The notes below the pieces were generated by a model that was given only the letters and a program-made list of their open reading frames with translations, was not told the DNA's origin and searched no databases. The position numbers were made by a program, and so were the translations under genes. Source: an uncultured Gammaproteobacteria bacterium (lineage in GTDB: Bacteria > Patescibacteriota > Microgenomatia > Levybacterales > UBA12049). From it: DNA of 64,000 bases. This document shows, piece by piece, positions 1 to 54,400 of the stretch; within the stretch, counting starts at the first letter, position 1, and each line of letters starts with the position of its first letter. The DNA lies in the NCBI GenBank assembly GCA_964497535.1, contig CAZCCG010000001.1:66688-130687 (forward strand), written 5' to 3'.

Positions 1-444
1 AAACTCTTCCGCACCGATAGCCTCCCGCGCCACCGCCTGGCCTTCGCACATGGCAGTATAGGAGATGCGGGTTTCCGCAGCTAATCCGGTAAGACCACCG
101 ACTCCTAGTGCAGCGGCACTCACGCCGCTGAATTGGTTACCAACCTGAGTCTGCTGGATACCGATCCAGCTGGTCTGGTTGGCAAAACTCAAGGGCTGAC
201 CGGCGTATTGGGGACCACTCTGCCCGTAGCCGAGCTGAGACCCCAACATCTGAGGTGATACTGGACCCGTCTGCTGCAGCGGAGCCGGGTTAGTAGCCGT
301 ATGGTGAGCAGCTCCCAAGACCGGCAAAGCCGCCCGTGCACCTTCCGCAGCGCAAATCGCATGCGCCTCGTCCGACGCAAACGCGCTGGACGGAATGACA
401 CAGCCAAGAATGAGGACTAACAACGCTACTGTTCTACCACGCAT
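1..444 (-). CDS. Partial secreted protein with signal peptide; the 3-prime end lies outside the window. GC-rich (about 60%), unlike the neighbouring DNA.
   Basis: Continuous open frame on the minus strand from an ATG (reverse complement of 442-444) to the window edge, 148 codons with no stop. N-terminus MRGRTVALLVLILGCVIPSSAFA looks like a signal or lipoprotein leader. AGGAG lies 8 nt upstream of the ATG. Not in the supplied ORF track because it runs off the edge. Confidence 0.45.
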   Translation of the reverse strand, partial: MRGRTVALLVLILGCVIPSSAFASDEAHAICAAEGARAALPVLGAAHHTATNPAPLQQTGPVSPQMLGSQLGYGQSGPQYAGQPLSFANQTSWIGIQQTQVGNQFSGVSAAALGVGGLTGLAAETRISYTAMCEGQAVAREAIGAEEF

Positions 445-572
445 CTGAAAACTCCTACTTTGCTATTTCTAAGCTCTGCGTGCCACGCGCCAAACCTCTA
501 CGCTACTTCCCGCGTTTCACCTCCCAGTAATAATAAGTGATCAACTCAAGTTATCCAGCTTGAACGTCCCGT

Positions 573-601
573 AGTATAACATAGACATCTTTATCTGTCA
601 A
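573..601 (-). promoter_or_regulatory. Consensus sigma70-type promoter (TTGACA, 17-nt spacer, TATACT) for the GC-rich edge gene; about 130-nt leader.
   Basis: Minus-strand reading: TTGACA gataaagatgtctatgt TATACT. Exact hexamers and 17-nt spacing seen directly in the sequence. Confidence 0.5.
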
Positions 602-861
602 CTATTTTAGACGACAAATATCGATATCTTGCTACGGAATCGATTGTTAGGATATCAAAAAACAGCAAAACGTCAATATAATTCAACAATATCTTATAGT
701 TGCGCTTTTTATGAGGCTGATATATAATGTATCTGTCGTATAAAGAAATATACACTAATACATAAATCCTAAATAACAAATACTAAGCACTAAACAATAT
801 CGAAATGCAAATGCTCGAAATTCAAAACATACATAGTTTAGAAATTGGGATTTAACCTTTT

Positions 862-1617
862 ATGACTACTACCGAAGCACTCCAACAATTAGGCCTTTCT
901 CAACACGAAGCGGAAGTATATCTGTGTTTGTTACAGAATGGACCACTCTCACCTACCGACATTGCCCACAAAACCGGTATCAAACGTCCCAATGTCTATG
1001 CTATTGCCCAAACCCTGGAGCAAAAAGGACTTCTCTACTATCAATTGGTAAATAAGCGCAAACTTCTGACCGCCGCAGACCCCGAAAATATCCAAGACTT
1101 GGTCAAGCAAAAACTTGACCTGGCGACCTCCCTGCTCCCTCATCTCAAATCTATCGATACTACAGGCGGATTTAAAGCCAATATTACCTTTTATCAGGGA
1201 CGCAAAGCCATGCAGGAAATGATGAATCATGCTCTTACTATGAAGAAAAAGGAGTTCTGCGGCTTGTGGCCGGCCACCGATATGAATAAAATTCTAGGGA
1301 AAAAGTTTGTCGAAGACTTTATCGCAATACGAATTAAGAAGAATATAAATCTGCGCACCCTTCAAGACGCATCAAAAGAAAGCTTTTATGATGAAGAGGT
1401 CAAAACCGAAAAGGGACGCAACCTGACCCATTTTGCCTATGTGCCCGACAAATATACCTTTTCTCTCGGTATGGGTATTTATGATGATACGGTGGCATTT
1501 TATTCTTCCAAGAAAGAAAGCTATGGGTTTTTGGTCAAAAGCAAAGAATTTGCAGAGGTAATCCGGATGTTTTACGACAACCTCTGGGATCACAGCGGGA
1601 AGTTGAAGAAAGATTAG
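862..1617 (+). CDS. TrmB-family transcriptional regulator (N-terminal wHTH), paralog 1 of 3.
   Basis: N-terminal LGLSxxEAxVYLxLLxxGPxSPTDIAxxTGIKRPNVY motif typical of the TrmB HTH. 251 aa. Paralogous to the ORFs at 2455 and 4360. Confidence 0.75.
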   Translation: MTTTEALQQLGLSQHEAEVYLCLLQNGPLSPTDIAHKTGIKRPNVYAIAQTLEQKGLLYYQLVNKRKLLTAADPENIQDLVKQKLDLATSLLPHLKSIDTTGGFKANITFYQGRKAMQEMMNHALTMKKKEFCGLWPATDMNKILGKKFVEDFIAIRIKKNINLRTLQDASKESFYDEEVKTEKGRNLTHFAYVPDKYTFSLGMGIYDDTVAFYSSKKESYGFLVKSKEFAEVIRMFYDNLWDHSGKLKKD

Positions 1618-2318
1618 GATTTTATACCTATACGAAAAGGATTAAAGTTTGTTGTACTATCATATATATCTACTCCCTCAACTCTTTTTAAATGATTGAC
1701 TATCAAATATGTAACAGGAGTAACAACTATCTCATAGGCCACCTTCACCCAGTAGATATTCCAAGCTACCGTAAGCAAAAGTGAGTTTGGGATCACTCCA
1801 TAAAAAGCCACAACCATCACTACTACGGTATCAATTCCCTCTCCCACAATAGTTGAGCTTATTGTCCGAGTCCATAGATATTTACCCTGCGTTTTGACTT
1901 TCATTTTAGCCAAAACAAAAGAGTTAGCAAACTCTCCGACCCAATATGCTACTAAACTTCCGATAACCAACCTCGGAACAAATCCTAAAACAGTAGAATA
2001 AGCCTGATTATGTTCAAAGCCCGGGGCCGGGGGCAAAATACTTACTATCCCATATACAACAGCCATTAGCACAGAACACAAAAAGCCAATCCAGATCACT
2101 CTTCTTGACCTTTTAAATCCATAGACCTCGGTTAAAACATCACCAAAGATATAACTGACCGGAAATAAGAGTATGCCGGCACTCAGAGCAAGTGGTCCAA
2201 AACTGGCAATCTTACCAGCAGTCGTTTGAGTAATCAAAAGTACTGCCACAAAAATAGCAGTAATGAGATCATAATATTTAAAATTCCGGGGAAGCTCCGG
2301 TTGCGATAGCTTTTTCAT
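1614..2318 (-). CDS. yhhQ: Queuosine-precursor transporter, YhhQ/DUF165 (VUT) family membrane protein.
   Basis: Multi-TM protein of 234 aa carrying the LFPxSYIFGDVLTEVYG motif characteristic of YhhQ. Confidence 0.7.
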   Translation of the reverse strand: MKKLSQPELPRNFKYYDLITAIFVAVLLITQTTAGKIASFGPLALSAGILLFPVSYIFGDVLTEVYGFKRSRRVIWIGFLCSVLMAVVYGIVSILPPAPGFEHNQAYSTVLGFVPRLVIGSLVAYWVGEFANSFVLAKMKVKTQGKYLWTRTISSTIVGEGIDTVVVMVVAFYGVIPNSLLLTVAWNIYWVKVAYEIVVTPVTYLIVNHLKRVEGVDIYDSTTNFNPFRIGIKS

Positions 2319-2454
2319 AAAATCATTATAGGATAAAACTCGTCGCTGTAGCCTTTTTCCTTAAATTTAATAGAAATTCGCTCATTCTAGGCTTGAATGA
2401 CTGAGTAATTTGTGTATCCTTTGAGAATACAAATATGGTATAATACCGCTACCT

Positions 2455-3216
2455 ATGACTATCAATGATGCATTAGAACAGATTGGGCTTACCCAAAGGG
2501 AATCTTTAATCTATATACACCTGTTAAAATACGGACCCTCTTCCCCTACAGAAATTGCCACTCAAACTTCTATCAAAAGACCAAATGTCTATGATGCAAT
2601 TAAATCCTTAGAAAAACAGGGATTGATCAAATACCACTTAGTCAGCAAAAGAAAGCTGATTGCACCAGAACCAGTAGAAAAAATTGAAGAGTTAGTCACG
2701 CACAGGCTCCACTTGGTCCAAAACTTAATTCCTAGCCTCAAAAGCATCAATCAAGAAGGGACTTTTAAAAGTACTATCACTTTCTATCAGGGTAAAAGAG
2801 CCATGGTTAACCTGCTCAAGGAAGTTTTATCTATGAAAGGCGGAGAATTATTGGGACTGTGGTCATCCCAAGACATGGATAGAATTCTGGATAAAAAAAC
2901 CATCCTCAGCTTTATCAGAACACGAGAAAAAAAAGGTATTAAAGCCAGAGTCTTGCATCATATGAAGAAAGAGGATTTAAAAGAGTATGGAGAAGAATTA
3001 GCCTCAGAAAGAGACTCTAAGATTACTCAAATAGGGTATGTCCCGGATAACGCTCTCTTCACGTTATCTATGTTAATTTACGATGATAGCGTTTCTTTCT
3101 TCTCCTCAAAAAAAGAAAGTTATGGGTTTAAAGTAGAAAGTAGAGAGTATGCAGAGCTTCAAAGAATGCTATTTGAAAACCTCTGGCAAAATTCCGGAAA
3201 GTTAAAACAAGAATAA
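2455..3216 (+). CDS. TrmB-family transcriptional regulator, paralog 2.
   Basis: Same N-terminal HTH motif (LGLTQRESLIYIHLLKYGPSSPTEIATQTSIKRPNVY). 253 aa. Collinear similarity to the 862 ORF along its full length. Confidence 0.75.
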   Translation: MTINDALEQIGLTQRESLIYIHLLKYGPSSPTEIATQTSIKRPNVYDAIKSLEKQGLIKYHLVSKRKLIAPEPVEKIEELVTHRLHLVQNLIPSLKSINQEGTFKSTITFYQGKRAMVNLLKEVLSMKGGELLGLWSSQDMDRILDKKTILSFIRTREKKGIKARVLHHMKKEDLKEYGEELASERDSKITQIGYVPDNALFTLSMLIYDDSVSFFSSKKESYGFKVESREYAELQRMLFENLWQNSGKLKQE

Positions 3217-3234
3217 TTTAGCCATGAAAAAGAG

Positions 3235-3262
3235 GCGGTTGGATTTCTCCTCCCGCCCCTGT
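3235..3262. terminator. Bidirectional intrinsic terminator between convergent genes.
   Basis: GC hairpin ggcgg..ccgcc(cc) flanked by a T-run on the plus strand (gcgtttt) and a T-run on the minus strand (ctcttttt). Confidence 0.5.
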
Positions 3263-3268
3263 TGCGTT

Positions 3269-3637
3269 TTAACGTCCGCCGACTTGACTTATCTCTTTTT
3301 CCTCAACCTCCTTTTCCGTAATGAATACGGCCACCATCCCCAGCAGGTAGACTGGAGTAAGGATCCCCTCCACTCCCGCTAGGCTCGAGGGGATGACCTC
3401 CTGAGTCACTAGGTACCAAAAGAGACACTGGAGTATCACCCCTGTGACACTCCAAATACTGCACTTCAACCAGTAGTGTGTCCACTTCTGGTTGACCTGC
3501 TCCTTCTTCTCATCGGGAGCACAGAATGTGCAGAAGATACCCCGTCCAGGAACCAGTTTTACCTGCCCCGCAATCAGAAGCTGCTGACACCGCCCGCAAA
3601 CTTTTTGAGCTTGCACGGGTCGACTCATTGCAGACAT
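3269..3637 (-). CDS. Hypothetical small membrane protein with CxxC..CxxC zinc-ribbon-like N-terminus.
   Basis: 122-aa ORF. CGRC and CTFC pairs are followed by a hydrophobic segment. Lies in a locally GC-enriched patch. Confidence 0.4.
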   Translation of the reverse strand: MSAMSRPVQAQKVCGRCQQLLIAGQVKLVPGRGIFCTFCAPDEKKEQVNQKWTHYWLKCSIWSVTGVILQCLFWYLVTQEVIPSSLAGVEGILTPVYLLGMVAVFITEKEVEEKEISQVGGR

Positions 3638-3713
3638 GATGGACTCCTTCTGAGTAATGAGTGGGGCGGTCAGCTTACGCCTCCCGCCCCTGACGTTGGA
3701 AACTCCCGGTTAC

Positions 3714-4058
3714 CTAGTACTTCTTGAACCAAAAACCTCGCCGAAGTTCGCTGGGATCCTGGATCCCAACGCTGATGATGGTGAGAAGAATGGCCGCAAC
3801 GATGCTGCCAATCTCCCCAATGACCGCTTGAGCAAGAAACTCCAGGTCCTTCTGACCCAGACCCTGGACCAGGCCGAACAAACTGAGTACCCAGTACCCA
3901 ACAGATAGAGCCAGAAACATCCCGATAAGGATGACGCTCAGAAGCGCCATCATCCCGAGAACGAGAGAGATGGCCAGAGCCACCTCTCGGATAGCCTTGA
4001 GAACGAACGACATTTCTTTCTCCTCTTCCGCTCTTGCGGCACTATATCTCAGCCTCAT
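3714..4058 (-). CDS. Hypothetical small membrane protein.
   Basis: 114-aa ORF with two predicted TM helices. Same strand and GC-enriched patch as the 3269 ORF. Confidence 0.4.
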   Translation of the reverse strand: MRLRYSAARAEEEKEMSFVLKAIREVALAISLVLGMMALLSVILIGMFLALSVGYWVLSLFGLVQGLGQKDLEFLAQAVIGEIGSIVAAILLTIISVGIQDPSELRRGFWFKKY

Positions 4059-4359
4059 TTACCCTCGGCCCTGTGCCGGAGGTTTAAAGCTGCCCCCAAT
4101 ACCACTCTGAGATTGCTTCACCCTGAGCGTAGTAGAAGGGCTCGCAATGACAAGAAATGACCTTGAGGGCAGCCTCAACGACTGGCTATAAGTAGGTTCA
4201 AGTTAGCTTCAGTTGTAAAAGAACGCTTGGGTTGAAGCTTCGGCTTCCCGCTTAATAGTGAAGAGAAGCATTCAATGTCCTGTAGTATATCATAAGATCC
4301 TTAATTTGTCAAGTTTTTCCGACGACAAATTTGATGTTCGTGTGTGCTACAATAGATAT

Positions 4360-5112
4360 ATGGACCCATCCGTTATCGCACAGCTTCAAAGCCTCAATTT
4401 CTCGGTAAACGAGGCTACGGTGTATACAGCACTTCTGGAGATAGGACAAACCTCTGCCGGGGAGATAATCAAAAAGACAGGGCTTCATCGGAGCGTGGTG
4501 TATGAGACTCTCGATAAGCTTATAGCAAGAAAACTGGTTTTTAAGCTTGAGAAGCAAAAGATTGCTTTTTACCAAGCAACAGACCCCTCAAGACTCTTGC
4601 AAAACATAAAATCCCAAGAAGAGATAGCCATGGAGCTGATCCCAAAACTCACTAATTTTATAGATACAAAGCTTCCGGAGATAACTATTTATGAAGGCTT
4701 AGAATCATATAGAGCGTTTTGGCTCGCCTTTTATGCCAGGGTGGAACCTGGATCAACAGACTATATTGCAGGATCAATTGGGTCATATTGGCAAGAACTG
4801 TTAGGAATAAGAACTATCGAAAAGATATTGCAAATTCAGGTGGAACGAAAGATCAAGTGGAAAGCTTTGATGTTCTCAAAAGACCCTATTGAGATGGAAT
4901 GGTTCCAGAGGTCTCCTGAGTTATATGAATGTCGGCTCATTAATAAGAACGGCCCAGCCGAAGGAAATTATAATATTACCAGTGAAGGAACTGTTCTTCT
5001 CCACTCAGCCACAGAACCCATGATTATTGAAATAAAAAATCCGACACTATTTCGAGTGTTTCAAAACATCTTTGATACAATGTGGGATATAGCCAAACCA
5101 CTCAACCCTTAA
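4360..5112 (+). CDS. TrmB-family transcriptional regulator, paralog 3 (start moved to an internal Met).
   Basis: Alignment to paralogs 1 and 2 begins at MDPSVIAQLQSLNFSVNEATVYTALLEIGQTSAGEII. The upstream 34 codons in the ORF track are probably not translated. Confidence 0.65.
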   Translation: MDPSVIAQLQSLNFSVNEATVYTALLEIGQTSAGEIIKKTGLHRSVVYETLDKLIARKLVFKLEKQKIAFYQATDPSRLLQNIKSQEEIAMELIPKLTNFIDTKLPEITIYEGLESYRAFWLAFYARVEPGSTDYIAGSIGSYWQELLGIRTIEKILQIQVERKIKWKALMFSKDPIEMEWFQRSPELYECRLINKNGPAEGNYNITSEGTVLLHSATEPMIIEIKNPTLFRVFQNIFDTMWDIAKPLNP

Positions 5113-18734: not shown

Positions 18735-18955
18735 CTATGTCATTTCTTGCAAATCTTTTTATTTTTCTCAAAATCGGCATTTTGTTGTTGCTTTTCTTAT
18801 ATGCTGCTTTTTCTTTCGTAGTCCTGAATCAATGCCATAGAATGAACCACGTGATACGGGAAAATTACTCATCAAATGTAGTATTTATAACATGTGCTGT
18901 TCATCTTTTTCTTGCTATTTCCCTTTTTCTCCTGGCAGTTGCTATACTATAAGAA

Positions 18956-21259: not shown

Positions 21260-21750
21260 TCTGAAACTTAATTCTTGTTAACGAAGTGTGGCTTGCCACT
21301 TCGTAGCCCTGATTTATCAGGGCGAAGAGTGGAGATGTCCGAGAGTGACCCGGAGTGCAAAAAAGTAATTAAAAAACGTGTACAAGCGTAGTCGATTTTT
21401 TAAGTGTCGCTTTGTACGATTCCAATCGACAGGATTTACAAAGCCAAGGTTTTAAATAAGCTCCATAAGGACAAAACCAAAGATCCCTATAAGTTCTCCC
21501 AACTTAGTTTGTGCTCATAAAATCCCGTTGAGAAAAGATTCTATGAACAGGTCTTAGGCTGCCATCGCGTAAGCGAAGGAAGACTGACCCGAAAGAGCTC
21601 CCAGCTCTGCAAGAGTTGCCTCTCGCATCGCAATGAGTCTTTCTCTCATGCTTAATTTAGCATTTATTATTTAATAGTGTTTTACGACTACTTATCAAAG
21701 TCGGCTTGCGTCTTTTCAATGTTCTTTAGTGTCGAATCAATGCATCCCCC
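21201..21750 (-). ncRNA. ssrA: Structured ncRNA immediately downstream of smpB; candidate tmRNA (ssrA) with a non-canonical or unrecognised 3-prime tRNA-like half.
   Basis: 5-prime end GGGGGAUGCAUUGAUUCGACAC resembles the tmRNA 5-prime consensus GGGG..GAUUCGAC. An in-frame tag-like reading frame ends ...SFAYAMAA-stop at plus-strand 21554. Multiple nested hairpins and a terminal GC hairpin plus U-run end at 21201-21243. Canonical GGUUCGAAUCC T-arm and CCA were not found. Confidence 0.3.
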
Positions 21751-22326: not shown

Positions 22327-22398
22327 GCCAGGGTAGCTCAATGGCGGAGCACAGCATTCATAACGCTGAGGTTGTGGGTTCGATCCCCACCCCTGGTA
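22327..22398 (+). tRNA. tRNA with CAT anticodon (Met elongator, or Ile2 if lysidinylated).
   Basis: Cloverleaf folded by hand. Acceptor gccaggg/ccctggt with G1-U72. Anticodon loop ttCATaa. T-loop ttcgatc. CCA not encoded. Confidence 0.75.
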
Positions 22399-22399
22399 C

Positions 22400-23083
22400 T
22401 CAACCCTTAAATAAAGTTACTCCCCATACTTGTTTTGCGCCGTTTCGCTTCAGCACCTTCGCAGCTTCTTTAAGCGTGGAGCCGGTTGTTACCAAATCGT
22501 CTAGCAAAAAAATGATTTTCCCCTGCACGTCCCCTCTCACCCCAAAAGCATTTTTCATATTTTCTACCCGTTGCTTTTTATCCAAAGAGAATTGGGAATG
22601 GGTATTTTTTACCCGTATCAATGATTGTTCCACGGGGAGAGAAAGTTTTTTGGATAATCCTTGCGCCAGAAGCTGGGCATGGTTATATCCCCTTCTTCTC
22701 TGCCGATTGGAATGAAGCGGTATAGGAACCATGAAAACTTTCGGCCGATTTAAGAGCGTAGTAAATAGTTCTTTCTGAATAATCCCTTCATACAGTAAAT
22801 CAACCAGAACAGTATGTAAATCCGACAGATATGGTTTGTATTTAAAATTGTAAAGGAGTTTGTGGGCTACTGTGGAATAGTAAAGACTCGTGAAGACCCC
22901 ATCAATATTATACTTTGATATACATCCCGGATGAGTCAGGCCATCACTACTGGCACGCTCACACACGAGGCATTTGGAGACAAAATCAAAAGAAAGATAA
23001 GAAAAACAATCGGGGCACAGGTACGAACCGAATTTTTTGCAGGAAACACAGAATTTTGGAAAAAGCACATCCAGAATTCCCAC
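22400..23083 (-). CDS. comF: ComF-family protein (competence-associated phosphoribosyltransferase-like, ComFC).
   Basis: N-terminal Cys-rich zinc-finger (CVSCKKFGSYLCPDC...CLVC). C-terminal PRTase motif IFLLDDLVTTGSTL. Confidence 0.75.
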   Translation of the reverse strand: MGILDVLFPKFCVSCKKFGSYLCPDCFSYLSFDFVSKCLVCERASSDGLTHPGCISKYNIDGVFTSLYYSTVAHKLLYNFKYKPYLSDLHTVLVDLLYEGIIQKELFTTLLNRPKVFMVPIPLHSNRQRRRGYNHAQLLAQGLSKKLSLPVEQSLIRVKNTHSQFSLDKKQRVENMKNAFGVRGDVQGKIIFLLDDLVTTGSTLKEAAKVLKRNGAKQVWGVTLFKG

Positions 23084-23135
23084 CCTATGAGTGTAGCAAA
23101 TAAAAGCTATAAGATGATATAATCAAGCCTATCGA

Positions 23136-23222
23136 GGAGGAGTCGCATAGTTGGTCCATTGCGAGGGGTTGCTAACCCCTTGAGCCGCAAGGCTCGCGCA
23201 GGTTCGAATCCTGTCTCCTCCG
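23136..23222 (+). tRNA. tRNA-Ser (GCT anticodon).
   Basis: Acceptor ggaggag/ctcctcc. Anticodon loop ttGCTaa. Long variable arm gagccgcaaggctcgc. T-loop ttcgaat. Confidence 0.8.
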
Positions 23223-23266
23223 CAATAACTATACCCTATACGCTATAAAACTAAACGCTAGTTTAA

Positions 23267-23353
23267 GGAGAGATCGCATAGTGGACGAGTGCAGCGGTCT
23301 TGAAAACCGCCAGGGGTGCAAGCTCCTCGTGGGTTCGAATCCCACTCTCTCCG
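23267..23353 (+). tRNA. tRNA-Ser (TGA anticodon).
   Basis: Acceptor ggagaga/tctctcc. Anticodon loop ctTGAaa. Long variable arm. T-loop ttcgaat. Confidence 0.8.
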
Positions 23354-23393
23354 CAAATTGACTAAAGGAGCTAAATCATTTACAGTTAACTAT

Positions 23394-24107
23394 ATGGCTG
23401 CCCAAGACGATACAACAACACCTCCAGGTGAACAACACTATTTACCCAAAGAACCGCTTGATCTTCCTCGTGAAGAACTTGATTTACCCCGGCCGCCTCT
23501 GGATTTACCCAAAGAACCTGAGGAAATTACAGCTCATGTTACTCTTCCACCCCAACAACCACAAAATCAACATCACACTTCTGATGAGCACCGTTCTTCC
23601 TACTATGAAGTAAAGACTCTTTTGTCCTGGCATGCACCCGGCAGGCCGTTTCAACAACATACCAGACAATATTATATGAGCATACTCTTGATTGTCCTTT
23701 TATTAGAAGTTATTTCTTTTCTTTTCGCTCAATATCCCCTTATGGCACTGATTGCTTCTTTTGGATTTGTCATATTTGCGCTCTCAAGCGTTCCTCCTCA
23801 CAATATCCTGTATCGTATCAGCAACGAAGGCATAACTATTGAAGATTACTCCTATATCTGGGAGGAACTGTATGACTTTTATTTCAAACGCAGAGGTAAT
23901 ATAGACGTCCTGCATCTGCGAACCCGTGCATTTTTGCCGGGGGAAATTACCATAACATTAGGAGAAATTACGAAAGATCATATCAGATCGGTCCTGCTTC
24001 CCTATCTTCCCTATCGGGAGTTTGTAAAGCCTTCACTTCTTGAAAAAGGGGGGGATTGGCTGGTGAAAACATTCCCTCTGGAAAAACCTATTCATCACAA
24101 TAGCTAA
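23394..24107 (+). CDS. Hypothetical membrane protein with N-terminal PxxLDLP repeats.
   Basis: The ORF in the track starts inside the tRNA-Ser; the in-frame Met at 23394 is the more plausible start. Three LDLP repeats and two TM helices. Confidence 0.4.
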   Translation: MAAQDDTTTPPGEQHYLPKEPLDLPREELDLPRPPLDLPKEPEEITAHVTLPPQQPQNQHHTSDEHRSSYYEVKTLLSWHAPGRPFQQHTRQYYMSILLIVLLLEVISFLFAQYPLMALIASFGFVIFALSSVPPHNILYRISNEGITIEDYSYIWEELYDFYFKRRGNIDVLHLRTRAFLPGEITITLGEITKDHIRSVLLPYLPYREFVKPSLLEKGGDWLVKTFPLEKPIHHNS

Positions 24108-24153
24108 TTTGCTTCAGATATAAGAATACGCTAAAATACACTGGTGCTAACGA

Positions 24154-24229
24154 GTCCTCGTAGCTTAATGGATAGAGCATTGGATTGCGGATCCAAAGGT
24201 TGGGCGTTCGAGTCGCCCCGGGGACGCCA
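24154..24229 (+). tRNA. tRNA-Arg (GCG anticodon) with encoded CCA.
   Basis: Acceptor gtcctcg/cggggac. D-stem gctt/gagc. Anticodon stem ttgga/tccaa with loop ttGCGga. T-loop ttcgagt. CCA present. Confidence 0.65.
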
Positions 24230-24249
24230 GTTCCGTTTCACTATAGTCT

Positions 24250-25458
24250 ATGTTCAAGAAATTTTTTCTTGATTTTCTTTACTCTCAATATAATCGGGTT
24301 TTCGCCGGACAGAAAAATTACCACGATAGGATAAAAAAGAATTATAGCCTTCAATATATAAAACTTACCAATACTCTTCTGGCAAAAGACTTGGAGAAAC
24401 AGAGTACTTCCCATGGAGGATTCCTCAGCTTTGCCGATTATCTTACTACCGAACAATATGGAATGCATGGATATCACTCCCACGCATCGCATCATGGAGA
24501 AACAGGCATACACTTCAGATGGCCAAAGGCACTAGCATCACTGCTTGCACAACATGCTATCAAAGACATTATTGAATTTGGGCCGGGAGATGGGAGTCTT
24601 GCAGCCACAACGATGAGAGAAGCACACAAACTACACCTCTTTCCATCATGGACCGGCATTGAAATCAATTCACAACTGCAGGAAAAGATACGGAAAAGAT
24701 TTAAAAAAGAAAAAGTGAAAAATAGTTTCCAAGTTGTACCGTCTTTGAAGCAAGTACCATTCCAAAACCAAAAACTCGTTATTTTCCCTTATAGCCTTGA
24801 TAGTTTAGCACCTGAAATACTCATAAATACCACTGCTTCAATTGCTTTTCCTAATAAATTGATCGGTGTTACTGTTCAAAATAGTATGCTAAAGGAAATT
24901 CCGTTGGACCAACTATCGCAACTGTCTCTTGCAAAGGGGAAAGTATATACGACAGAGGGATTATCTTTTGATTTTAGTTCATGGAAACTATATCCAGGAC
25001 AACGGATATATGCACCTATCCAAGCATTCTCAACACTCTATTCTATTACAAAAAAGGTCCCGAAAGGATCTATTATTGTTATCATCGATGAATTCCGCCC
25101 TCCCCCCCAACCTCAAGAGAGAGATCACTTTGGACTACTTCGGGATCTCCATTTATTCAAGAGGGACGCATTCGACCTGGAGAAAGCATACAAAACTGCT
25201 GGAGATAACCTCTGGTATCATCCTTTTTATTTTGTGGATTATTACTCATTTCTGAACCAATTAGGTTTTAACCAAATTATCTTTGATAAAGAACAAAAGC
25301 TTGCCAGAATTCTGGCGGGTGATTCATGGACTACAAAAAATCGATTCTATCTAACATATGCTCTGATTACCGATTCCAAAAAAAAGGATCCTCCGAAGCA
25401 TTTTACGATCCCCTTTCCCTCACAAGGTGATAATATTCCTAAACCAGACCACCCATGA
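24250..25458 (+). CDS. Putative class I SAM-dependent methyltransferase, MidA/DUF185 (NDUFAF7-like) family.
   Basis: 402 aa. IIEFGPGDGSLA nucleotide-binding motif resembles the ELGPGRGTL block of the MidA family; family call from memory. Confidence 0.45.
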   Translation: MFKKFFLDFLYSQYNRVFAGQKNYHDRIKKNYSLQYIKLTNTLLAKDLEKQSTSHGGFLSFADYLTTEQYGMHGYHSHASHHGETGIHFRWPKALASLLAQHAIKDIIEFGPGDGSLAATTMREAHKLHLFPSWTGIEINSQLQEKIRKRFKKEKVKNSFQVVPSLKQVPFQNQKLVIFPYSLDSLAPEILINTTASIAFPNKLIGVTVQNSMLKEIPLDQLSQLSLAKGKVYTTEGLSFDFSSWKLYPGQRIYAPIQAFSTLYSITKKVPKGSIIVIIDEFRPPPQPQERDHFGLLRDLHLFKRDAFDLEKAYKTAGDNLWYHPFYFVDYYSFLNQLGFNQIIFDKEQKLARILAGDSWTTKNRFYLTYALITDSKKKDPPKHFTIPFPSQGDNIPKPDHP

Positions 25459-25479
25459 TATACTTCCTTGTAGGCTGAT

Positions 25480-25565
25480 GGAGGTGTGTCCGAGTGGTTT
25501 AAGGAGATAGTTTCGAAAACTATTGGGGCGAAAGTCCCTCAGAGGTTCGAATCCTCTCACCTCCG
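25480..25565 (+). tRNA. tRNA-Ser (CGA anticodon).
   Basis: Acceptor ggaggtg/cacctcc. Anticodon loop ttCGAaa. Long variable arm ggggcgaaagtccctc. T-loop ttcgaat. Confidence 0.8.
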
Positions 25566-25639
25566 CAACGTACAAAATCAGAGATTTTTACGTTGAGCCA
25601 TTAACTAAACGCTATACGCTATTAACTATACGCTCATTT

Positions 25640-25713
25640 GTCTTCGTAGTTCAGTTGGATAGAACGTCAGGTTCCGAACCTGAAGGTCGGAGGTTCGAGT
25701 CCTCTCGGAGACG
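25640..25713 (+). tRNA. tRNA-Arg (CCG anticodon).
   Basis: Acceptor gtcttcg/cggagac. Anticodon stem tcagg/cctga with loop ttCCGaa. T-loop ttcgagt. Confidence 0.8.
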
Positions 25714-25727
25714 CTAAGGTTCAACTT

Positions 25728-25760
25728 GCCCTCGTAGCTTTAACGAAGGGGGGTTCTTCT
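25728..25760 (+). terminator. Intrinsic terminator after the tRNA array; member of a recurring hairpin family (also at 21205-21243).
   Basis: gccctcgtagctttaacgaaggggg hairpin followed by gttcttct. Confidence 0.45.
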
Positions 25761-25810
25761 CAGGAGTACTCAAGCTTTGGCAGGCGGGGAGTCCTCTCGG
25801 AGATGCAAAA

Positions 25811-26935
25811 TTAACGCCCTCCGGCGCCCTTCATTTGCACAGCTTGTGCCTGAGTAACCATAATTCCTCCTTCAAGCATTGACAAACCGGCTAATTCTAA
25901 GATGGATTTCCAATCTATTTTCTTCCCTTTATTCAATTGGTCAACTACTGTTTCCATTGCTTTATTGGTTGCTGCTAGTGAGCTTTTAAGCGAATCTATT
26001 TGTTCTTTTAGTTCTTTTATTTGCTGTTGCTCTGGCGTTAAAGGAGCTTCTACTGATGTTTCTCCTTCTTGTGTTTGATCATTTTGCGCTCCCTCTTGCT
26101 GACCGTTGTTATTTACTGCAGGCTCTTGCGCCCCAGCTGCGGCTGTTTCTGCTCCATCTGTTGCTGGCTGTGCATCTGGATCTGTTATTACAGCTTCTCC
26201 TGCAGCGGATTGGGATCCTGCTTCCTGTGCTCGAGCATGATCAACTGCTGCCTGGACATATTCCCGAGTTGCATCATCCATTTGCCAGTTATTGTCTGCA
26301 TGAAGTTTAGCCATTACATCATCTACGTTTGTAGATCCGGAAATATCAATATTTAGATTACGCAATTCATTATATGCGCCTGCTCTTCGTGCAGCTTGTG
26401 CTTGTTCTGCGGCAGGATCAACTGTAGTATCCGGCCGGGCAGCTCCATCAGAAGCTTCTGTACCTGCGGCCGCAGCGGGTCTTACCCCTGATTCTGCTGC
26501 ACCTGTAGTGTTCTGTTCTCCCGGTCTCGGTTCTTCTGTTGAACCAGGAGCAGTCGGTCGTATACCAGGAGGTGTCTCTGTACTTACTCCGGCTTGATCG
26601 GTTCCTTCTGCAGGTCGTGGTGGCTCTGCCGCACCCGATGTTGCTGGCCGCTCAGCACCTGCGGCAGGTGTTCTAACTTCATCTACCATACCTGCTCTGG
26701 TATTGTCTGCGCCTGATGCCTGTGGTCCTTCTACTTTTACTCCTTTAGCACCCCACGCATTGCCTCCTTCTCCTCTAAATAACCCTTTGAAACCCTCTGC
26801 TCCTCGTCCTACTAACCCACGAATCCCACGGGCTGCTGCCTGGTTACGGGCGGAATCAACACCAGGCCTCGCTGCATCTGGTCTGACTGAGGAGCGGGCT
26901 GCTTCTTGCTGTGGTACGGGCGTTTCTGCTGCCAT
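25811..26935 (-). CDS. Hypothetical intrinsically disordered Ala/Pro/Gly/Thr-rich protein with C-terminal coiled-coil.
   Basis: 374-aa ORF of strongly biased low-complexity composition; the C-terminal 60 aa are predicted helical (QQQIKELKEQIDSLKSSL). Confidence 0.45.
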   Translation of the reverse strand: MAAETPVPQQEAARSSVRPDAARPGVDSARNQAAARGIRGLVGRGAEGFKGLFRGEGGNAWGAKGVKVEGPQASGADNTRAGMVDEVRTPAAGAERPATSGAAEPPRPAEGTDQAGVSTETPPGIRPTAPGSTEEPRPGEQNTTGAAESGVRPAAAAGTEASDGAARPDTTVDPAAEQAQAARRAGAYNELRNLNIDISGSTNVDDVMAKLHADNNWQMDDATREYVQAAVDHARAQEAGSQSAAGEAVITDPDAQPATDGAETAAAGAQEPAVNNNGQQEGAQNDQTQEGETSVEAPLTPEQQQIKELKEQIDSLKSSLAATNKAMETVVDQLNKGKKIDWKSILELAGLSMLEGGIMVTQAQAVQMKGAGGR

Positions 26936-26937
26936 AG

Positions 26938-27291
26938 TTATTGAGTCCCTTTCTGCATATCTTTTGCGATTGTTATTGCATGTTCGATATTGCCTTTACT
27001 AATCGCATTGCGCATTTTTATAAGCACTCGTTGTCGTTCGACTTCCTGCGTTTCATCTAGCTTTTCAACATAGACTTCTTGTGCCTCAGGATATATTTTT
27101 GCCAATTCTTTCAGCTTGTCAAGTAAATCCTGATGGTCTACGACCGGCAACATAGCCAGAAAACTCTGTGCCAGTTCTTTCGCTTTATCCGGATCAGTTT
27201 TGTTCTCTTCCAAATGCTTTGCTATTAACTCCAGCAATTCATTTGCCACCGTATCTACTTCTTGTTGGATATCCATATCACAACCAATCAT
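26938..27291 (-). CDS. Hypothetical acidic all-helical protein, translationally coupled to the 25811 gene.
   Basis: 117-aa ORF ending 2 nt before the next start on the same strand. Confidence 0.4.
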   Translation of the reverse strand: MIGCDMDIQQEVDTVANELLELIAKHLEENKTDPDKAKELAQSFLAMLPVVDHQDLLDKLKELAKIYPEAQEVYVEKLDETQEVERQRVLIKMRNAISKGNIEHAITIAKDMQKGTQ

Positions 27292-27383
27292 TACATACTA
27301 TAACCTTTTCTGTCAATAAATGCGCCAGAATAGACCATTACAAAACTTGTATCGACAATCCCTCTAAAGTACAATGAACATAT

Positions 27384-27848
27384 ATGAAATTTGAATTTTC
27401 AGCCGGGGGCATCGTGTATAAACGCCAAACTATGCAGAACCATACGCAAAACAACGCGGAAGATATTTTGATATTGGTTGCTCAGCATTCCGGGCATCAT
27501 GGATGGGTTTTTCCCAAAGGCCATATTGGAGATACTATACAAGGAGAGAAGAAAGAAGAGACAGCGGTGCGGGAAGTTGAAGAAGAAACTGGTGTTTTGG
27601 CAAAAATTGTTGAACCTCTTCCCCCGGTTACTTATTGGTACGTACTGAAGAAAGAAAAAATTAAAAAAACAGTATATTATTTCCTCATGAAATATCTCTC
27701 CGTGGATTCGAGCAAAAAAGATGAGGAAATGGAGCAGGTTGAATGGCTGCCAATTGACGAGGTAGAAAATCGATTAACATATCCCTCAGATAAGGACGTG
27801 TGGCAGGAAGCAAAGAAACATCTTGAGAGCATAACGAAAAGCGTTTAG
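27384..27848 (+). CDS. NUDIX hydrolase.
   Basis: Nudix box GEKKEETAVREVEEETGV; 154 aa. Confidence 0.8.
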   Translation: MKFEFSAGGIVYKRQTMQNHTQNNAEDILILVAQHSGHHGWVFPKGHIGDTIQGEKKEETAVREVEEETGVLAKIVEPLPPVTYWYVLKKEKIKKTVYYFLMKYLSVDSSKKDEEMEQVEWLPIDEVENRLTYPSDKDVWQEAKKHLESITKSV

Positions 27849-27872
27849 TTAGTAGCGTATAGGGTATAGTTG

Positions 27873-27956
27873 CGGAGGAGACAGGATTCGAACCTGCGAG
27901 AGCTTTCGCTCGTACGCTTTCCAAGCGTATGCACTGGGCCACTATGCGACTCCTCC
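27873..27956 (-). tRNA. tRNA-Ser (GGA anticodon).
   Basis: Minus-strand cloverleaf. Acceptor ggaggag/ctcctcc. Anticodon loop ctTGGAaa, read as GGA. Long variable arm. T-loop ttcgaat. Confidence 0.75.
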
Positions 27957-53505: not shown

Positions 53506-53561
53506 CCCCATCCTATAAGTTCTTACAAACATTTTGTTAGGCATTTGTTATCCTATAGTGC

Positions 53562-53590
53562 TTGACTTTGAGGCTATTTCATGGTATACT
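53562..53590 (+). promoter_or_regulatory. Consensus sigma70-type promoter (TTGACT, 17-nt spacer, TATACT) driving the GC-rich cassette gene.
   Basis: TTGACT at 53562-53567, exact 17-nt spacer, TATACT at 53585-53590. About 105-nt GC-rich leader with AAGGAG at 53685-53690. Confidence 0.55.
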
Positions 53591-53699
53591 ACCCCTGCAT
53601 TCTGGACAAGTAGAGGCAAATCTCAAGTGCCGAACGCTTGTCCCCAGTGCGCACGCACGTTTCAGCAGAGGGGGACAACCCCAGAAGGAGCAGACTCAA

Positions 53700-54140
53700 A
53701 TGCCTCAGCAGCACGGCAGGCAACGCGGCATTCGCGAGCGCGTCGGAGAGGTCCTATTGGGGCCCGAAGGCACCCGCCGCAACCAGCCCCATGCGCAGGC
53801 GGCAGAGCCTCTGACCCAGCAAGCCCAGACGGCCACGCCCGTGGGGCCACGCTTCGACGGGCACACGCTCATCGGGGCGACCCTGCTCAAGCTCGGCCGC
53901 GGCAGCGGCCACGACGGCTACCTCCTCCGCCTCTTGGCGGACGGCAAGGCCGCCGAGGCTCCCGAGTGGGAGCCGAATAACGCCTGGGAGGCCAGCTGGA
54001 AACTCGACGAGCAGGGCAACCTGCACGTCACGGCCAACGGGGTCACCACCTCGGTCTCGCCCAAGCGCGCGGGCATCCCGCGCCGGTACGAGGCCAGACA
54101 GGACGAGACGCCTTACAGCGTCTACATCCTGAGCGACTAG
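53700..54140 (+). CDS. Hypothetical protein encoded by a compositionally foreign gene (65-75% GC, GC3-rich codons).
   Basis: ATG at 53700 preceded 9 nt upstream by AAGGAG; 147 codons; stop at 54138. The supplied ORF starts further upstream, but the upstream codons overlap the promoter. Confidence 0.5.
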   Translation: MPQQHGRQRGIRERVGEVLLGPEGTRRNQPHAQAAEPLTQQAQTATPVGPRFDGHTLIGATLLKLGRGSGHDGYLLRLLADGKAAEAPEWEPNNAWEASWKLDEQGNLHVTANGVTTSVSPKRAGIPRRYEARQDETPYSVYILSD

Positions 54141-54158
54141 TTCAGGAACGTGCCCCAT

Positions 54159-54200
54159 GGGGCGGCTCGCGCAGCATTGCGCAGCCGCCCCTTTTTCTTT
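54159..54200 (+). terminator. Strong intrinsic terminator of the GC-rich cassette gene.
   Basis: ggggcggctcgcgcagcattgcgcagccgcccc hairpin followed by tttttcttt. Confidence 0.7.
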
Positions 54201-54400
54201 GTTATAGGACTTTTCACAGAAAACCCCTTTTTTATACCCCTTTGACCTACTTTGATAACCTTGCAATAGGATTTTTCACGTTATACACTAATTGAGACTC
54301 TTCTATAGGGTTTATATTCTATGGTGGGGTCTCAACTGTCCATCTTCAACGCATCTGTTTGAAACTGGATATTTGAAACAAGTATTCATTTCTATTTATT

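What the first reader, a model, noticed from the sequence alone, without database searches (positions are those of the whole stretch)
1..601. GC-rich partial gene at the window edge, driven by a textbook sigma70 promoter
The first 550 nt or so are about 60% GC, against about 40% for the rest of the window, and encode the 5-prime part of a secreted protein on the minus strand. The gene is preceded by an exact TTGACA, 17-nt spacer, TATACT promoter, a roughly 130-nt leader and an AGGAG RBS. The same architecture recurs at the 53.6-54.2 kb GC-rich cassette, whose promoter TTGACT-17-TATACT has a near-identical -10 context (g(g/t)tatactac). Two compositionally foreign genes carrying E. coli-consensus expression signals inside an AT-rich reduced genome suggest either recent horizontal acquisition (possibly from a high-GC host organism) or an assembly chimera.
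Basis: seen in the sequence. Interest (0 to 1): 0.55.

Follow-up and report, generated by a model that had tools for sequence, protein, structure and literature searches.

The report
Foreign gene behind a native promoter
The GC-rich gene at the window edge is real: it is probably a foreign gene for a small secreted protein, expressed from a promoter that belongs to this tiny-genome (Levybacteria) lineage and that drives different unknown genes in related genomes.

Summary
Window 1-~560 is 58-60% GC against 42%. It carries the first 148 codons of a 171-aa secreted orphan protein, read on the minus strand from TTGACA-17-TATACT through a ~120-nt leader and an AGGAG ribosome-binding site. The full unit ends in an intrinsic terminator just outside the window.

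It is not an assembly chimera. Identical junctions occur in independent assemblies. A 32%-identical homologue, also ~60% GC, lies at a syntenic place in a related Levybacteria genome.

The window holds three such units: C1 at 618-1, C2 at 4329-3230 and C3 at 53562-54196. Third-codon-position GC is 0.59-0.89 against 0.37±0.05 for native genes. All four of their genes have a Shine-Dalgarno site, against 1 of 35 native genes, many of which look leaderless.

The promoter is not foreign. The same promoter, with an operator-like inverted repeat, sits next to orthologues of a TrmB-family regulator gene in four other metagenome contigs. There it drives unrelated AT-rich orphan genes, and in a fifth contig other GC-rich genes.

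Best reading: foreign genes captured in a native, probably TrmB-controlled, expression slot. Donor, protein function and capture mechanism are unknown.

The parts
1..444 (-). C1 ORF, first 148 of 171 codons. It encodes a small orphan protein with a Sec-type signal peptide, four Cys conserved with its only homologue, and a Gln/Gly-rich middle. GC is 0.60 and GC3 0.59-0.60.
452..456 (-). Shine-Dalgarno AGGAG, 7 nt upstream of the ATG. This signal is almost absent from native genes in the window.
445..566 (-). C1 5' leader of about 120 nt. The transcription start is inferred from the -10 box. The first ~45 nt are AT-rich and the rest GC-rich. There is no significant fold and no Rfam match.
   Evidence: z = +0.88
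573..601 (-). C1 core promoter: TTGACA, 17 nt, TATACT, with a TG extended -10.
594..618 (-). Operator-like element TTTGTCGTC-N7-GTTGACAGA overlapping the -35 box. It is shared with C2, L003 and L083-L087, and is an imperfect inverted repeat.
862..1617 (+). TrmB-family wHTH regulator gene (TrmB1), transcribed divergently from C1. It is a candidate regulator of the C1 promoter.
   Evidence: PF01978, 4e-15
4284..4329 (-). C2 promoter and operator-like repeat: TTTGTCGTCGGAAAAACTTGACAAAT...TGATATACT. It lies 30 nt from the start of the divergent TrmB3 gene.
4360..5112 (+). TrmB3 regulator gene. Its orthologues (53-69% aa identity) flank the same promoter unit in L003, L083, L084, L085 and L087. A TGCTACAAT box ends 6 nt before its ATG, so the mRNA is probably leaderless.
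4014..4277 (-). C2 leader of about 264 nt. It contains a conserved long hairpin (4178-4084), which is also found twice in L086.
   Evidence: (z = -2.66)
3714..4013 (-). C2a ORF, 99 aa, a predicted membrane protein. GC3 is 0.67, and GGAG lies 8 nt before the ATG.
3269..3637 (-). C2b ORF, 122 aa, with CxxC...CxxC motifs and hydrophobic segments. GC3 is 0.60, with an AGGAG site.
3228..3261 (-). C2 intrinsic terminator. A sister hairpin without a T-run lies at 3692-3665, between C2a and C2b.
53562..53590 (+). C3 promoter: TTGACT, 17 nt, TATACT with TG. Only the left half of the upstream element (ATTTGT) is present.
53700..54140 (+). C3 ORF, 146 aa. GC is 0.70, with GC1/2/3 of 0.71/0.50/0.89. AGGAG lies at 53686-53690. 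No homologue was found anywhere.
54159..54200 (+). C3 intrinsic terminator: a 14-bp GC-rich stem followed by a T-run.
   Evidence: -30.2 kcal/mol, z = -4.3

Best explanation
C1 is a complete, correctly assembled transcription unit in a Candidatus Levybacteria (CPR/Patescibacteria) genome. It has two layers of different origin.

The promoter layer is native. It is a sigma-70-type extended -10 promoter whose -35 box lies inside an imperfect inverted repeat, TTTGTCGTC-N7-GTTGACAAA. This lineage keeps that unit next to TrmB-family regulator genes. By inference, the inverted repeat is the operator of the neighbouring TrmB-like protein.

The layer downstream of the first tens of nucleotides of the leader is foreign cargo: a GC-rich leader, a canonical Shine-Dalgarno site, an orphan ORF and a GC-rich intrinsic terminator. 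By inference, the transcript is translated in the Shine-Dalgarno-dependent way, unlike most native, largely leaderless mRNAs. The product would be exported by Sec and cleaved after SAFA, giving a ~148-aa extracellular protein with two likely disulfides and a Gln/Gly-rich centre. Its function is unknown; a surface or host-interaction factor is a guess.

The promoter acts as a slot whose cargo is exchanged between related genomes. In this genome three units (C1, C2, C3) hold GC-rich cargo taken from an unidentified, higher-GC gene pool that uses Shine-Dalgarno sites.
For: Shown:
- The complete unit, with native Band_7 downstream and TrmB upstream, appears in two independent assemblies.
- GC3 is 0.59-0.89 against a native 0.37±0.05, maximum 0.48. 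As a control, the GC-rich native gene at 25811-26935 has GC3 of 0.27.
- A Shine-Dalgarno site is present in 4 of 4 cassette ORFs against 1 of 35 native ORFs. Nine native genes have a -10 box 5-8 nt before the start codon.
- L003 shows the same split: 3 of the 4 ORFs in its GC-rich units have a Shine-Dalgarno site, against 1 of 14 native ORFs. The fourth was read with an offset start, and only AAGGAA lies upstream of its ATG.
- The promoter unit is conserved in 8 copies from at least 6 contigs, with invariant TTTGTCGTC..AAA...TTGACA..TG.TA.ACTA.
- TrmB3 orthologues sit 38 nt (L083, L087) or ~800 nt (L084, L085) from the unit.
- The cargo in L083/84/85/87 is AT-rich (GC3 0.27-0.36), partly unrelated, and without Pfam hits.
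- L084 and L085 are 91% identical across TrmB3, the promoter and the first part of the leader, then entirely different.
- L086 carries the unit with different GC-rich cargo.
- The C1 homologue P0003 keeps the signal peptide, four Cys and the FRxWCRTxP motif, which argues for a real protein.
- Another GC-rich unit in L003 carries a genuine FabI gene, matching PDB FabI at 4e-85. This lineage therefore does take up ordinary bacterial genes of higher GC.
- Outside one Parcubacteria subgroup, CPR 16S rRNAs generally keep the anti-Shine-Dalgarno motif (PMC9297842).
Against: - No donor was found. C1 has a single homologue among 1.84 billion representative proteins and 5.8 billion clustered proteins. 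C3 has none.
- The two C1-family genes lie at syntenic loci and are both GC-rich. This could instead mean a resident gene whose GC content is maintained.
- C1 itself shows no codon-position periodicity (GC1/2/3 of 0.63/0.58/0.60).
- No recombinase, flanking repeats or target-site duplication was seen, so the capture mechanism is unknown.
- TrmB binding, the transcription start and secretion are all inferred.
- C3 lacks the full inverted repeat and has no TrmB neighbour, so the slot model is shown only for C2 and the C1/L003 pair.
Confidence: 0.6

Rival explanations
1. Moron-like mobile unit. The whole cassette, promoter included, moves as one self-contained transcription unit, as phage morons do, and was inserted three times.
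For: Each unit has its own promoter and terminator and an odd GC content, as in the moron definition (PMC3594210). The three promoters share TTGAC(A/T)-17-TATACTAC with TG.
Against: The promoter is AT-rich like the genome. It is conserved at an orthologous position beside TrmB3 in genomes whose cargo is native in composition. The L084/L085 breakpoint lies downstream of the promoter. There is no phage context, and PHROGs and viral-contig searches found nothing.
Confidence: 0.13
2. Resident lineage-specific gene. C1 has been in this Levybacteria clade since before the two genomes split. Selection keeps it GC-rich, for example for mRNA stability or Shine-Dalgarno-led high expression, and there was no recent transfer.
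For: A homologue with a near-identical promoter lies at a syntenic place in L003. No donor homologue exists in very large databases.
Against: The cassette proteins are only 32% identical, while neighbouring proteins are 76-89% identical. Four-fold degenerate sites in the neighbours are 39.5% identical, against 26% at saturation. By a crude decay estimate, a GC3 of 0.76 in L003 would then need an impossible ancestral GC3 above 1. Unrelated cargo in the same type of slot, and a FabI operon in L003, are also GC-rich and carry Shine-Dalgarno sites. A foreign source explains this more simply.
Confidence: 0.15
3. Assembly or binning chimera that joins a high-GC organism's fragment to a CPR contig.
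For: The GC steps are abrupt. Some Logan contigs break at cassette edges: L089 ends at window 53542 and L092 covers only 3212-4387.
Against: The sequence across both edges of all three units is 99.99-100% identical in independent assemblies of two or three runs. The units are short (0.6-1.1 kb) and embedded between native genes. Their promoter and terminator are precisely placed. An equivalent arrangement exists in a different sample.
Confidence: 0.02
4. The GC-rich segments are structured non-coding RNAs, and the ORFs are chance open frames in GC-rich DNA.
For: GC-rich islands in AT-rich genomes are often RNA genes. Gene callers disagreed on strand for C2a and C3. The C2 leader holds a conserved hairpin.
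Against: C3 has the coding signature GC3 0.89 > GC1 0.71 > GC2 0.50, and the L003 homologue has 0.76/0.67/0.45 for GC3/GC1/GC2. Every ORF has a well-spaced Shine-Dalgarno site. The signal peptide and Cys pattern are conserved at 32% identity. Rfam found nothing, and the C1 leader folds no better than shuffled sequence.
Confidence: 0.03

Closest known systems
Phage morons (independent transcription units in prophages; Cumby et al. 2012, PMC3594210)
   Same: Both are a short unit with its own sigma-70 promoter and factor-independent terminator. Both have a GC content unlike their neighbours, carry a gene of accessory or unknown function, and vary between relatives.
   Different: This unit is not in a phage or prophage. 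The promoter is a conserved resident element tied to a regulator gene, not part of the inserted DNA. Here the cargo is GC-richer than the genome and brings a Shine-Dalgarno site into a genome that hardly uses one.
Integron platform (Pc promoter and attI capturing promoterless cassettes)
   Same: Both have a fixed promoter followed by exchangeable, small, mostly orphan genes of varied composition, often with secretion signals or membrane segments. A repeated hairpin accompanies the ORFs in C2 and L086.
   Different: There is no integrase gene and no attC core sites (RYYYAAC/GTTRRRY). Each unit ends in a transcription terminator. The divergent gene is a TrmB-type regulator, not intI. The hairpin lies upstream of the ORFs, not downstream.
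Divergent wHTH-regulator/target-gene pairs (TrmB, MarR and IclR type loci)
   Same: The regulator gene is read divergently from the target, and a palindromic site overlaps the target's -35 box. The intergenic region is short, 30-38 nt for TrmB3.
   Different: The regulated gene is not a fixed partner such as a sugar transporter. It differs from genome to genome. Binding has not been shown.
Ordinary horizontally acquired genomic islets detected by atypical GC3
   Same: Codon composition is atypical, the phyletic distribution is narrow, and the genes are orphans.
   Different: These units are very small, single-gene sized, and sit exactly inside a native expression signal. There are no mobility genes, tRNA targets or flanking repeats.

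Membership tests
Phage moron | Own promoter and own factor-independent terminator | tested here: met
   Promoter at 601-573. Terminator at L001 10528-10552, with an 11-bp stem (8 GC pairs) followed by ATTTATT. C2 and C3 terminators fold with z of about -4.3 to -4.5.
Phage moron | GC content differs from surrounding genes | tested here: met
   GC is 0.58-0.70 against 0.42, and GC3 is 0.59-0.89 against 0.37.
Phage moron | Lies within a phage or prophage genome between conserved phage genes | tested here: not met
   The neighbours are TrmB, Vut_1, PGK, PBPs and Band_7. C3 lies in a T4SS-like locus. PHROGs gave no hits for the cassette proteins, and viral contigs gave nothing.
Integron gene cassette | Adjacent tyrosine-recombinase IntI gene | tested here: not met
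   Pfam scans of the genes around C1 and C2 (window 1-20 kb) and of part of the remaining window found no recombinase. The divergent genes are TrmB-family.
Integron gene cassette | attC site with R''/R' core sequences after each ORF | tested here: not met
   Each ORF is followed by an ordinary terminator hairpin. The repeated 58-95-nt hairpin in C2 and L086 lies upstream of the ORFs and lacks GTTRRRY cores. C1 and C3 have no such hairpin.
Sigma-70 extended -10 promoter | TTGACA-like -35 box, 17±1 nt spacer, TATAAT-like -10 box, TG one base upstream | tested here: met
   It matches 11 of 12 positions and has the TG. The element is conserved in 8 aligned copies. Activity itself cannot be tested with these tools.
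TrmB-type regulator/operator pair | Neighbouring gene encodes a TrmB wHTH domain | tested here: met
   PF01978 hits at 4e-15 (TrmB1) and 2e-13 (TrmB3).
TrmB-type regulator/operator pair | Palindromic site overlapping the controlled promoter and conserved together with the regulator | tested here: met
   TTTGTC-N13-GACAAA spans the -35 box in C2, L003 and L083-L087. C1 has GACAGA in the right arm. Orthologues of TrmB3 lie adjacent.
TrmB-type regulator/operator pair | Protein binds the site and changes transcription | not testable with these tools
   This needs EMSA, footprinting or reporter assays.
Sec-secreted protein | N-terminal positive region, hydrophobic core and AxA cleavage motif | tested here: met
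   MRGR-TVALLVLILGCVIPS-SAFA|SD. The homologue has SAHA|GD. This is by inspection only. The lipobox-like LGC is not conserved.
Known cis-regulatory RNA (Rfam) in the leader | Covariance-model match | tested here: not met
   There were no matches at E<=1 in window 1-4500, and only chance-level matches in 53400-54400.
Known protein family for the C1 product | Profile match (Pfam, NCBIfam, PHROGs, PADLOC or PDB) | tested here: not met
   Searches found nothing. The AlphaFold model has pLDDT 36 and is unusable.

The most novel reading that the evidence does not exclude
This Levybacteria clade may have a gene-capture system without an integrase. A conserved promoter-operator unit controlled by a TrmB-type regulator would serve as a docking and expression site for exogenous DNA, perhaps taken up from a higher-GC host through the competence or T4SS machinery. 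The DNA would be inserted gene by gene, and the conserved long hairpin seen before the ORFs in C2 and L086 would be the cassette-associated recombination or processing element. The captured genes keep donor-type Shine-Dalgarno translation signals in an otherwise leaderless genome. That would give the cell a separately controllable, 'foreign-style' expression class for secreted and membrane effectors.
Probability: 0.1. Interest if true: 0.8.

Novelty: new variant of a known kind. Interest (0 to 1): 0.5.

Why it matters
CPR bacteria are thought to depend on hosts and to exchange DNA with them, but clear cases of gene capture with defined boundaries are rare. Here the native/foreign boundary can be narrowed to a few tens of nucleotides within the leader. 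The promoter and operator are native. The leader, Shine-Dalgarno site, ORF and terminator are foreign.

Close relatives hold different cargo in the same slot, which points to an active hot spot for acquiring secreted and membrane orphan proteins. Those are the kind of proteins expected to mediate contact with a host.

The contrast between a leaderless, Shine-Dalgarno-poor native gene set and Shine-Dalgarno-led acquired genes is a simple new marker for foreign genes in such genomes. It also raises the question of how their ribosomes treat the two mRNA classes.

There is a practical lesson as well. Gene callers put two of the four cassette genes on the wrong strand, so these proteins are missing from protein databases.

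Tried and rejected
- Homologue searches: the word-indexed search of 5.8 billion proteins found only C1 itself and nothing for C3. The C1+P0003 profile found no new members.
- The full HMMER scan of 1.84 billion representatives gave one true relative, P0003. It also gave two spurious hits: P0002 (2349 aa, no aligned stretch reported) and P0004, a repeat protein sharing only an EYREWCKNNP-like motif.
- Pfam, PHROGs, NCBIfam, PADLOC and PDB sequence searches of the cassette and cargo proteins found nothing usable.
- tblastn of C3 against phage and plasmid collections found nothing.
- Viral contig scans found nothing for the promoter unit, the hairpin, the C1 family or C3.
- The AlphaFold models have pLDDT 36 (C1) and 56 (C3). 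They are too poor for fold search, so none was run.
- The genome-contig scan with TrmB1 found nothing. The scan with PBP1 identified the phylum, but the best match is only 68% identical, and none of the 79 loci carries the promoter unit or cassette homologues.
- Rfam at permissive thresholds found nothing in the leaders.
- A repeat search around the cassettes found no flanking direct or inverted repeats that would mark an insertion.
- Literature searches for the run accession, for Levybacteria HGT and for TrmB in CPR found nothing relevant.
- The GC-rich region 26.0-27.0 kb was considered as a fourth cassette and rejected. Its GC3 is 0.27, so its GC comes from an Ala/Gly/Pro-rich protein.

Full report
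**What is in the sequence**

Window 1-500 is 58.4% GC, while nearly every other 500-nt bin is 35-47%. On the minus strand an ORF starts at ATG 444-442 and runs off the window, giving a 148-aa fragment. AGGAG lies at 456-452. Upstream are TTGACA (601-596), a 17-nt spacer, and TATACT (578-573) preceded by TG. That includes the second cassette at 53.6-54.2 kb, with TTGACT-17-TATACT at 53562-53590.

Exact matches to TTGAC-N18-TATACT occur only three times in 64 kb, and each precedes a GC-rich segment.

**The full unit and the chimera question**

The fragment matches a 171-aa protein, P0001, held by NCBI on a 393-kb contig and by Logan assemblies. Two independent assemblies (SRR9179563 and SRR9179560; loci L001 and L002) show the whole unit. 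It consists of the promoter, a ~120-nt leader, the ORF and an 11-bp GC-rich terminator hairpin. It is followed by a native Band_7 gene with its own promoter.

These assemblies are 99.99-100% identical to the window. C2 and C3 are likewise identical, in context, in two or three runs. An assembly chimera is therefore excluded for practical purposes.

**The organism**

The neighbours are TrmB-type regulators, Vut_1, PGK, a CvpA/CAP protein and two class A PBPs. PBP1 finds its best relatives, at 57-70% identity, in Candidatus Levybacteria/Levyibacteriota genomes, which belong to the Microgenomates within the CPR.

**Composition**

| Gene set | GC3 |
|---|---|
| 32 native ORFs | 0.369 ± 0.047 (max 0.48) |
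| C1 | 0.59-0.60 |
| C2a | 0.67 |
| C2b | 0.60 |
| C3 | 0.89 |

C3 has GC1 of 0.71 and GC2 of 0.50, the classic pattern of a gene from a ~70% GC genome. As a control, the GC-rich native gene at 25811-26935 has GC3 of 0.27, so its GC content comes from amino-acid composition alone.

**Translation signals**

All four cassette ORFs have a well-spaced GGAG or AGGAG site. Only 1 of 35 native ORFs has any Shine-Dalgarno-like core. Native genes that head transcription units typically have a -10 box 5-8 nt before the start codon (9 of 35), so their mRNAs are probably leaderless.

The related contig L003 shows the same split. Three of the four ORFs in its GC-rich units have a Shine-Dalgarno site, against 1 of 14 native ORFs. 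The fourth was read with an offset start, and only AAGGAA lies upstream of its ATG.

The cassettes are thus foreign both in composition and in their mode of translation initiation. Published work indicates that CPR lineages outside one Parcubacteria subgroup mostly keep the anti-Shine-Dalgarno motif (PMC9297842). The sites should therefore be usable, but this genome's 16S rRNA was not available to check.

**Relatives of the C1 protein**

A full HMMER scan of 1.84 billion representative proteins found one true relative, P0003 (158 aa; 32-35% identity; E = 2e-9). The pairwise BLASTP E-value is 8e-19. The signal peptide with its AxA site, four cysteines, an xRAALP motif and a C-terminal FRxWCRTxP...QLxCP motif are all conserved. 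This supports a real, secreted, disulfide-bonded protein. A profile of the two sequences found no more members.

P0003 lies in L003, from a different sample, SRR21359062. Its order is PBP2-PBP1-CvpA/CAP-PGK-TrmB-(PIN toxin-antitoxin)-[P0003]-GAPDH. The window matches this order up to the TrmB gene. The shared neighbours are 76-89% identical in protein.

The L003 copy is also 59-61% GC in a 42-44% GC contig, with GC3 of 0.76. It has a Shine-Dalgarno site, a terminator and a near-identical promoter: tatttgtcgtcgaaaatagTTGACA-17-TAGACTacggg.

**The promoter is native**

C1, C2 and the L003 unit share an upstream element, ATTTGTCGTC-NN-AAAA-NN-TTGACA. A pattern scan of JGI metagenome contigs found five more copies, L083-L087.

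In L083 and L087 the element lies 38 nt from the start of a divergently read orthologue of the window's TrmB3. That gene spans 4360-5112 in the window, and the orthologues are 60-64% identical. In L084 and L085 the element lies about 800 nt from such an orthologue. In the window the gap is 30 nt.

The element contains an imperfect inverted repeat, TTTGTCGTC-N7-GTTGACAAA, which spans the -35 box. This is the form expected of an operator for a dimeric wHTH protein.

In L083, L084, L085 and L087 the element drives AT-rich orphan genes (GC3 0.27-0.36), and these are not all related to one another. L084 and L085 are 91% identical through TrmB3, the promoter and the first part of the leader. After that they are completely different. 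That is direct evidence for cargo replacement downstream of a fixed promoter.

L086 has the element followed by yet other GC-rich genes with Shine-Dalgarno sites (GC3 0.81 and 0.63).

The promoter is therefore a resident, conserved regulatory unit, not an imported E. coli-like signal. The foreign DNA begins inside the leader.

**How old is the cargo?**

Four-fold degenerate sites in conserved residues of the shared neighbour genes are 39.5% identical between the window and L003, against 26% expected at saturation. By a crude two-state decay argument, which is my own inference, each lineage should have lost about 60% of any initial GC3 excess. C1 at 0.60 could then descend from an ancestor near 0.9, but the L003 copy at 0.76 could not.

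The cassette proteins are also only 32% identical beside neighbours at 76-89%. Together these favour separate acquisitions, or replacement from a diverged GC-rich gene pool, over simple vertical descent. Selection that maintains GC content cannot be excluded.

The donor is unknown. L003 also carries a GC-rich operon with Shine-Dalgarno sites that encodes a genuine FabI (E = 4e-85 to solved FabI structures). This lineage does therefore acquire ordinary bacterial genes of higher GC.

**What the C1 product does**

There are no hits in Pfam, NCBIfam, PHROGs, PADLOC or PDB, and the structure model is unusable. The only statements the data support are export by Sec, two likely disulfides and a low-complexity Gln/Gly-rich centre. 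A role at the cell surface or toward a host is a guess.

**Comparison with known systems**

The unit matches the published description of a phage moron in having its own promoter, its own terminator and a deviant GC content (PMC3594210). It fails the phage-context criterion, and its promoter is resident rather than imported.

It resembles an integron platform in having a fixed promoter with exchangeable orphan cargo. However, it has no integrase and no attC sites.

It is best filed as a new variant of horizontally acquired gene islets: single-gene cargo plugged into a conserved, regulator-linked promoter slot in a CPR genome.

**Verdict**

- Chimera is refuted.
- HGT is supported for the cargo but not for the promoter, and 'recent' and 'host donor' remain untested.
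- Interest is moderate. The phenomenon is clean and has some unusual aspects: the Shine-Dalgarno versus leaderless contrast, cargo swapping at a TrmB-linked promoter, and orphan genes with GC3 of 0.89 and no relatives. Mechanism and function remain open.

Noticed in passing
It has the same promoter type, a 264-nt leader, two small ORFs (a 99-aa membrane protein and a 122-aa Cys-motif protein with hydrophobic segments), and two sister hairpins, the second of which is a terminator. The Logan gene call placed the first gene (C2a) on the opposite strand.
   Followed up: yes
window 4084-4178 (-); L086 1491-1548 and 746-824 (-): A conserved long hairpin lies upstream of the ORFs in GC-rich cargo. 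Its 20-23 bp outer helix is TTGAGGCTGCCyTyAAG...TTGGrGGCAGyyTyAA, and the inner hairpin varies. A second small hairpin follows, with compensatory changes. There is no Rfam match, and only three copies are known. It could be a new cis-regulatory RNA or a DNA recombination element.
   Followed up: partly
whole window; e.g. 2436-2454, 4340-4359, 18940-18955, 38x-39.5 kb: Native genes almost never have a Shine-Dalgarno site (1 of 35). Many have a TATAAT-like box 5-8 nt before the start codon, so this Levybacteria genome appears to be dominated by leaderless mRNAs.
   Followed up: partly
window 53757-54266 (-): The public annotations from NCBI and Logan call the antisense shadow ORF across C3 instead of the sense ORF at 53700-54140. 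The real C3 protein is therefore absent from protein databases.
   Followed up: yes
L084 826-2004 vs L085 1964-3136: These two metagenome contigs are 91% identical across TrmB3, the promoter and the start of the leader. Downstream they carry completely different genes (230 aa and 345 aa). This is cargo replacement at the promoter slot.
   Followed up: partly
L003 16240-17600 (-): The related genome has another GC-rich operon with Shine-Dalgarno sites (55-58% GC). It encodes a genuine FabI enoyl-ACP reductase flanked by two small zinc-ribbon ORFs and ends in a terminator. The contig ends before its promoter.
   Followed up: partly
window 25811-26935 (-): A 374-aa low-complexity protein rich in Ala, Gly, Pro and Glu makes a local GC peak of 50-53%. 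Its GC3 is only 0.27, so it is native. It has no Pfam match.
   Followed up: partly
window ~28100-62130: A T4SS-like locus. It includes TrbL/VirB6 (28101), a T4SS pilin domain (35207), PrgI (54401), a VirB4/TraG-like ATPase (56390) and an SLT lysozyme domain (58768). Among these lie giant orphan proteins of 944-1829 aa, one with a PP2C domain and one with a GT9 domain. C3 sits between the GT9 giant and PrgI.
   Followed up: no
window 21327-21749 (-), 22327-27956: tmRNA and seven tRNA genes (Met, four Ser, two Arg). A ComFC-like competence protein (22403-23083) lies among them, which fits a capacity for DNA uptake.
   Followed up: no
L003 9186-9895 (-): In the related genome a PIN toxin-antitoxin pair is inserted between the TrmB3 orthologue and the promoter unit. 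The antitoxin start codon directly abuts the inverted repeat.
   Followed up: no
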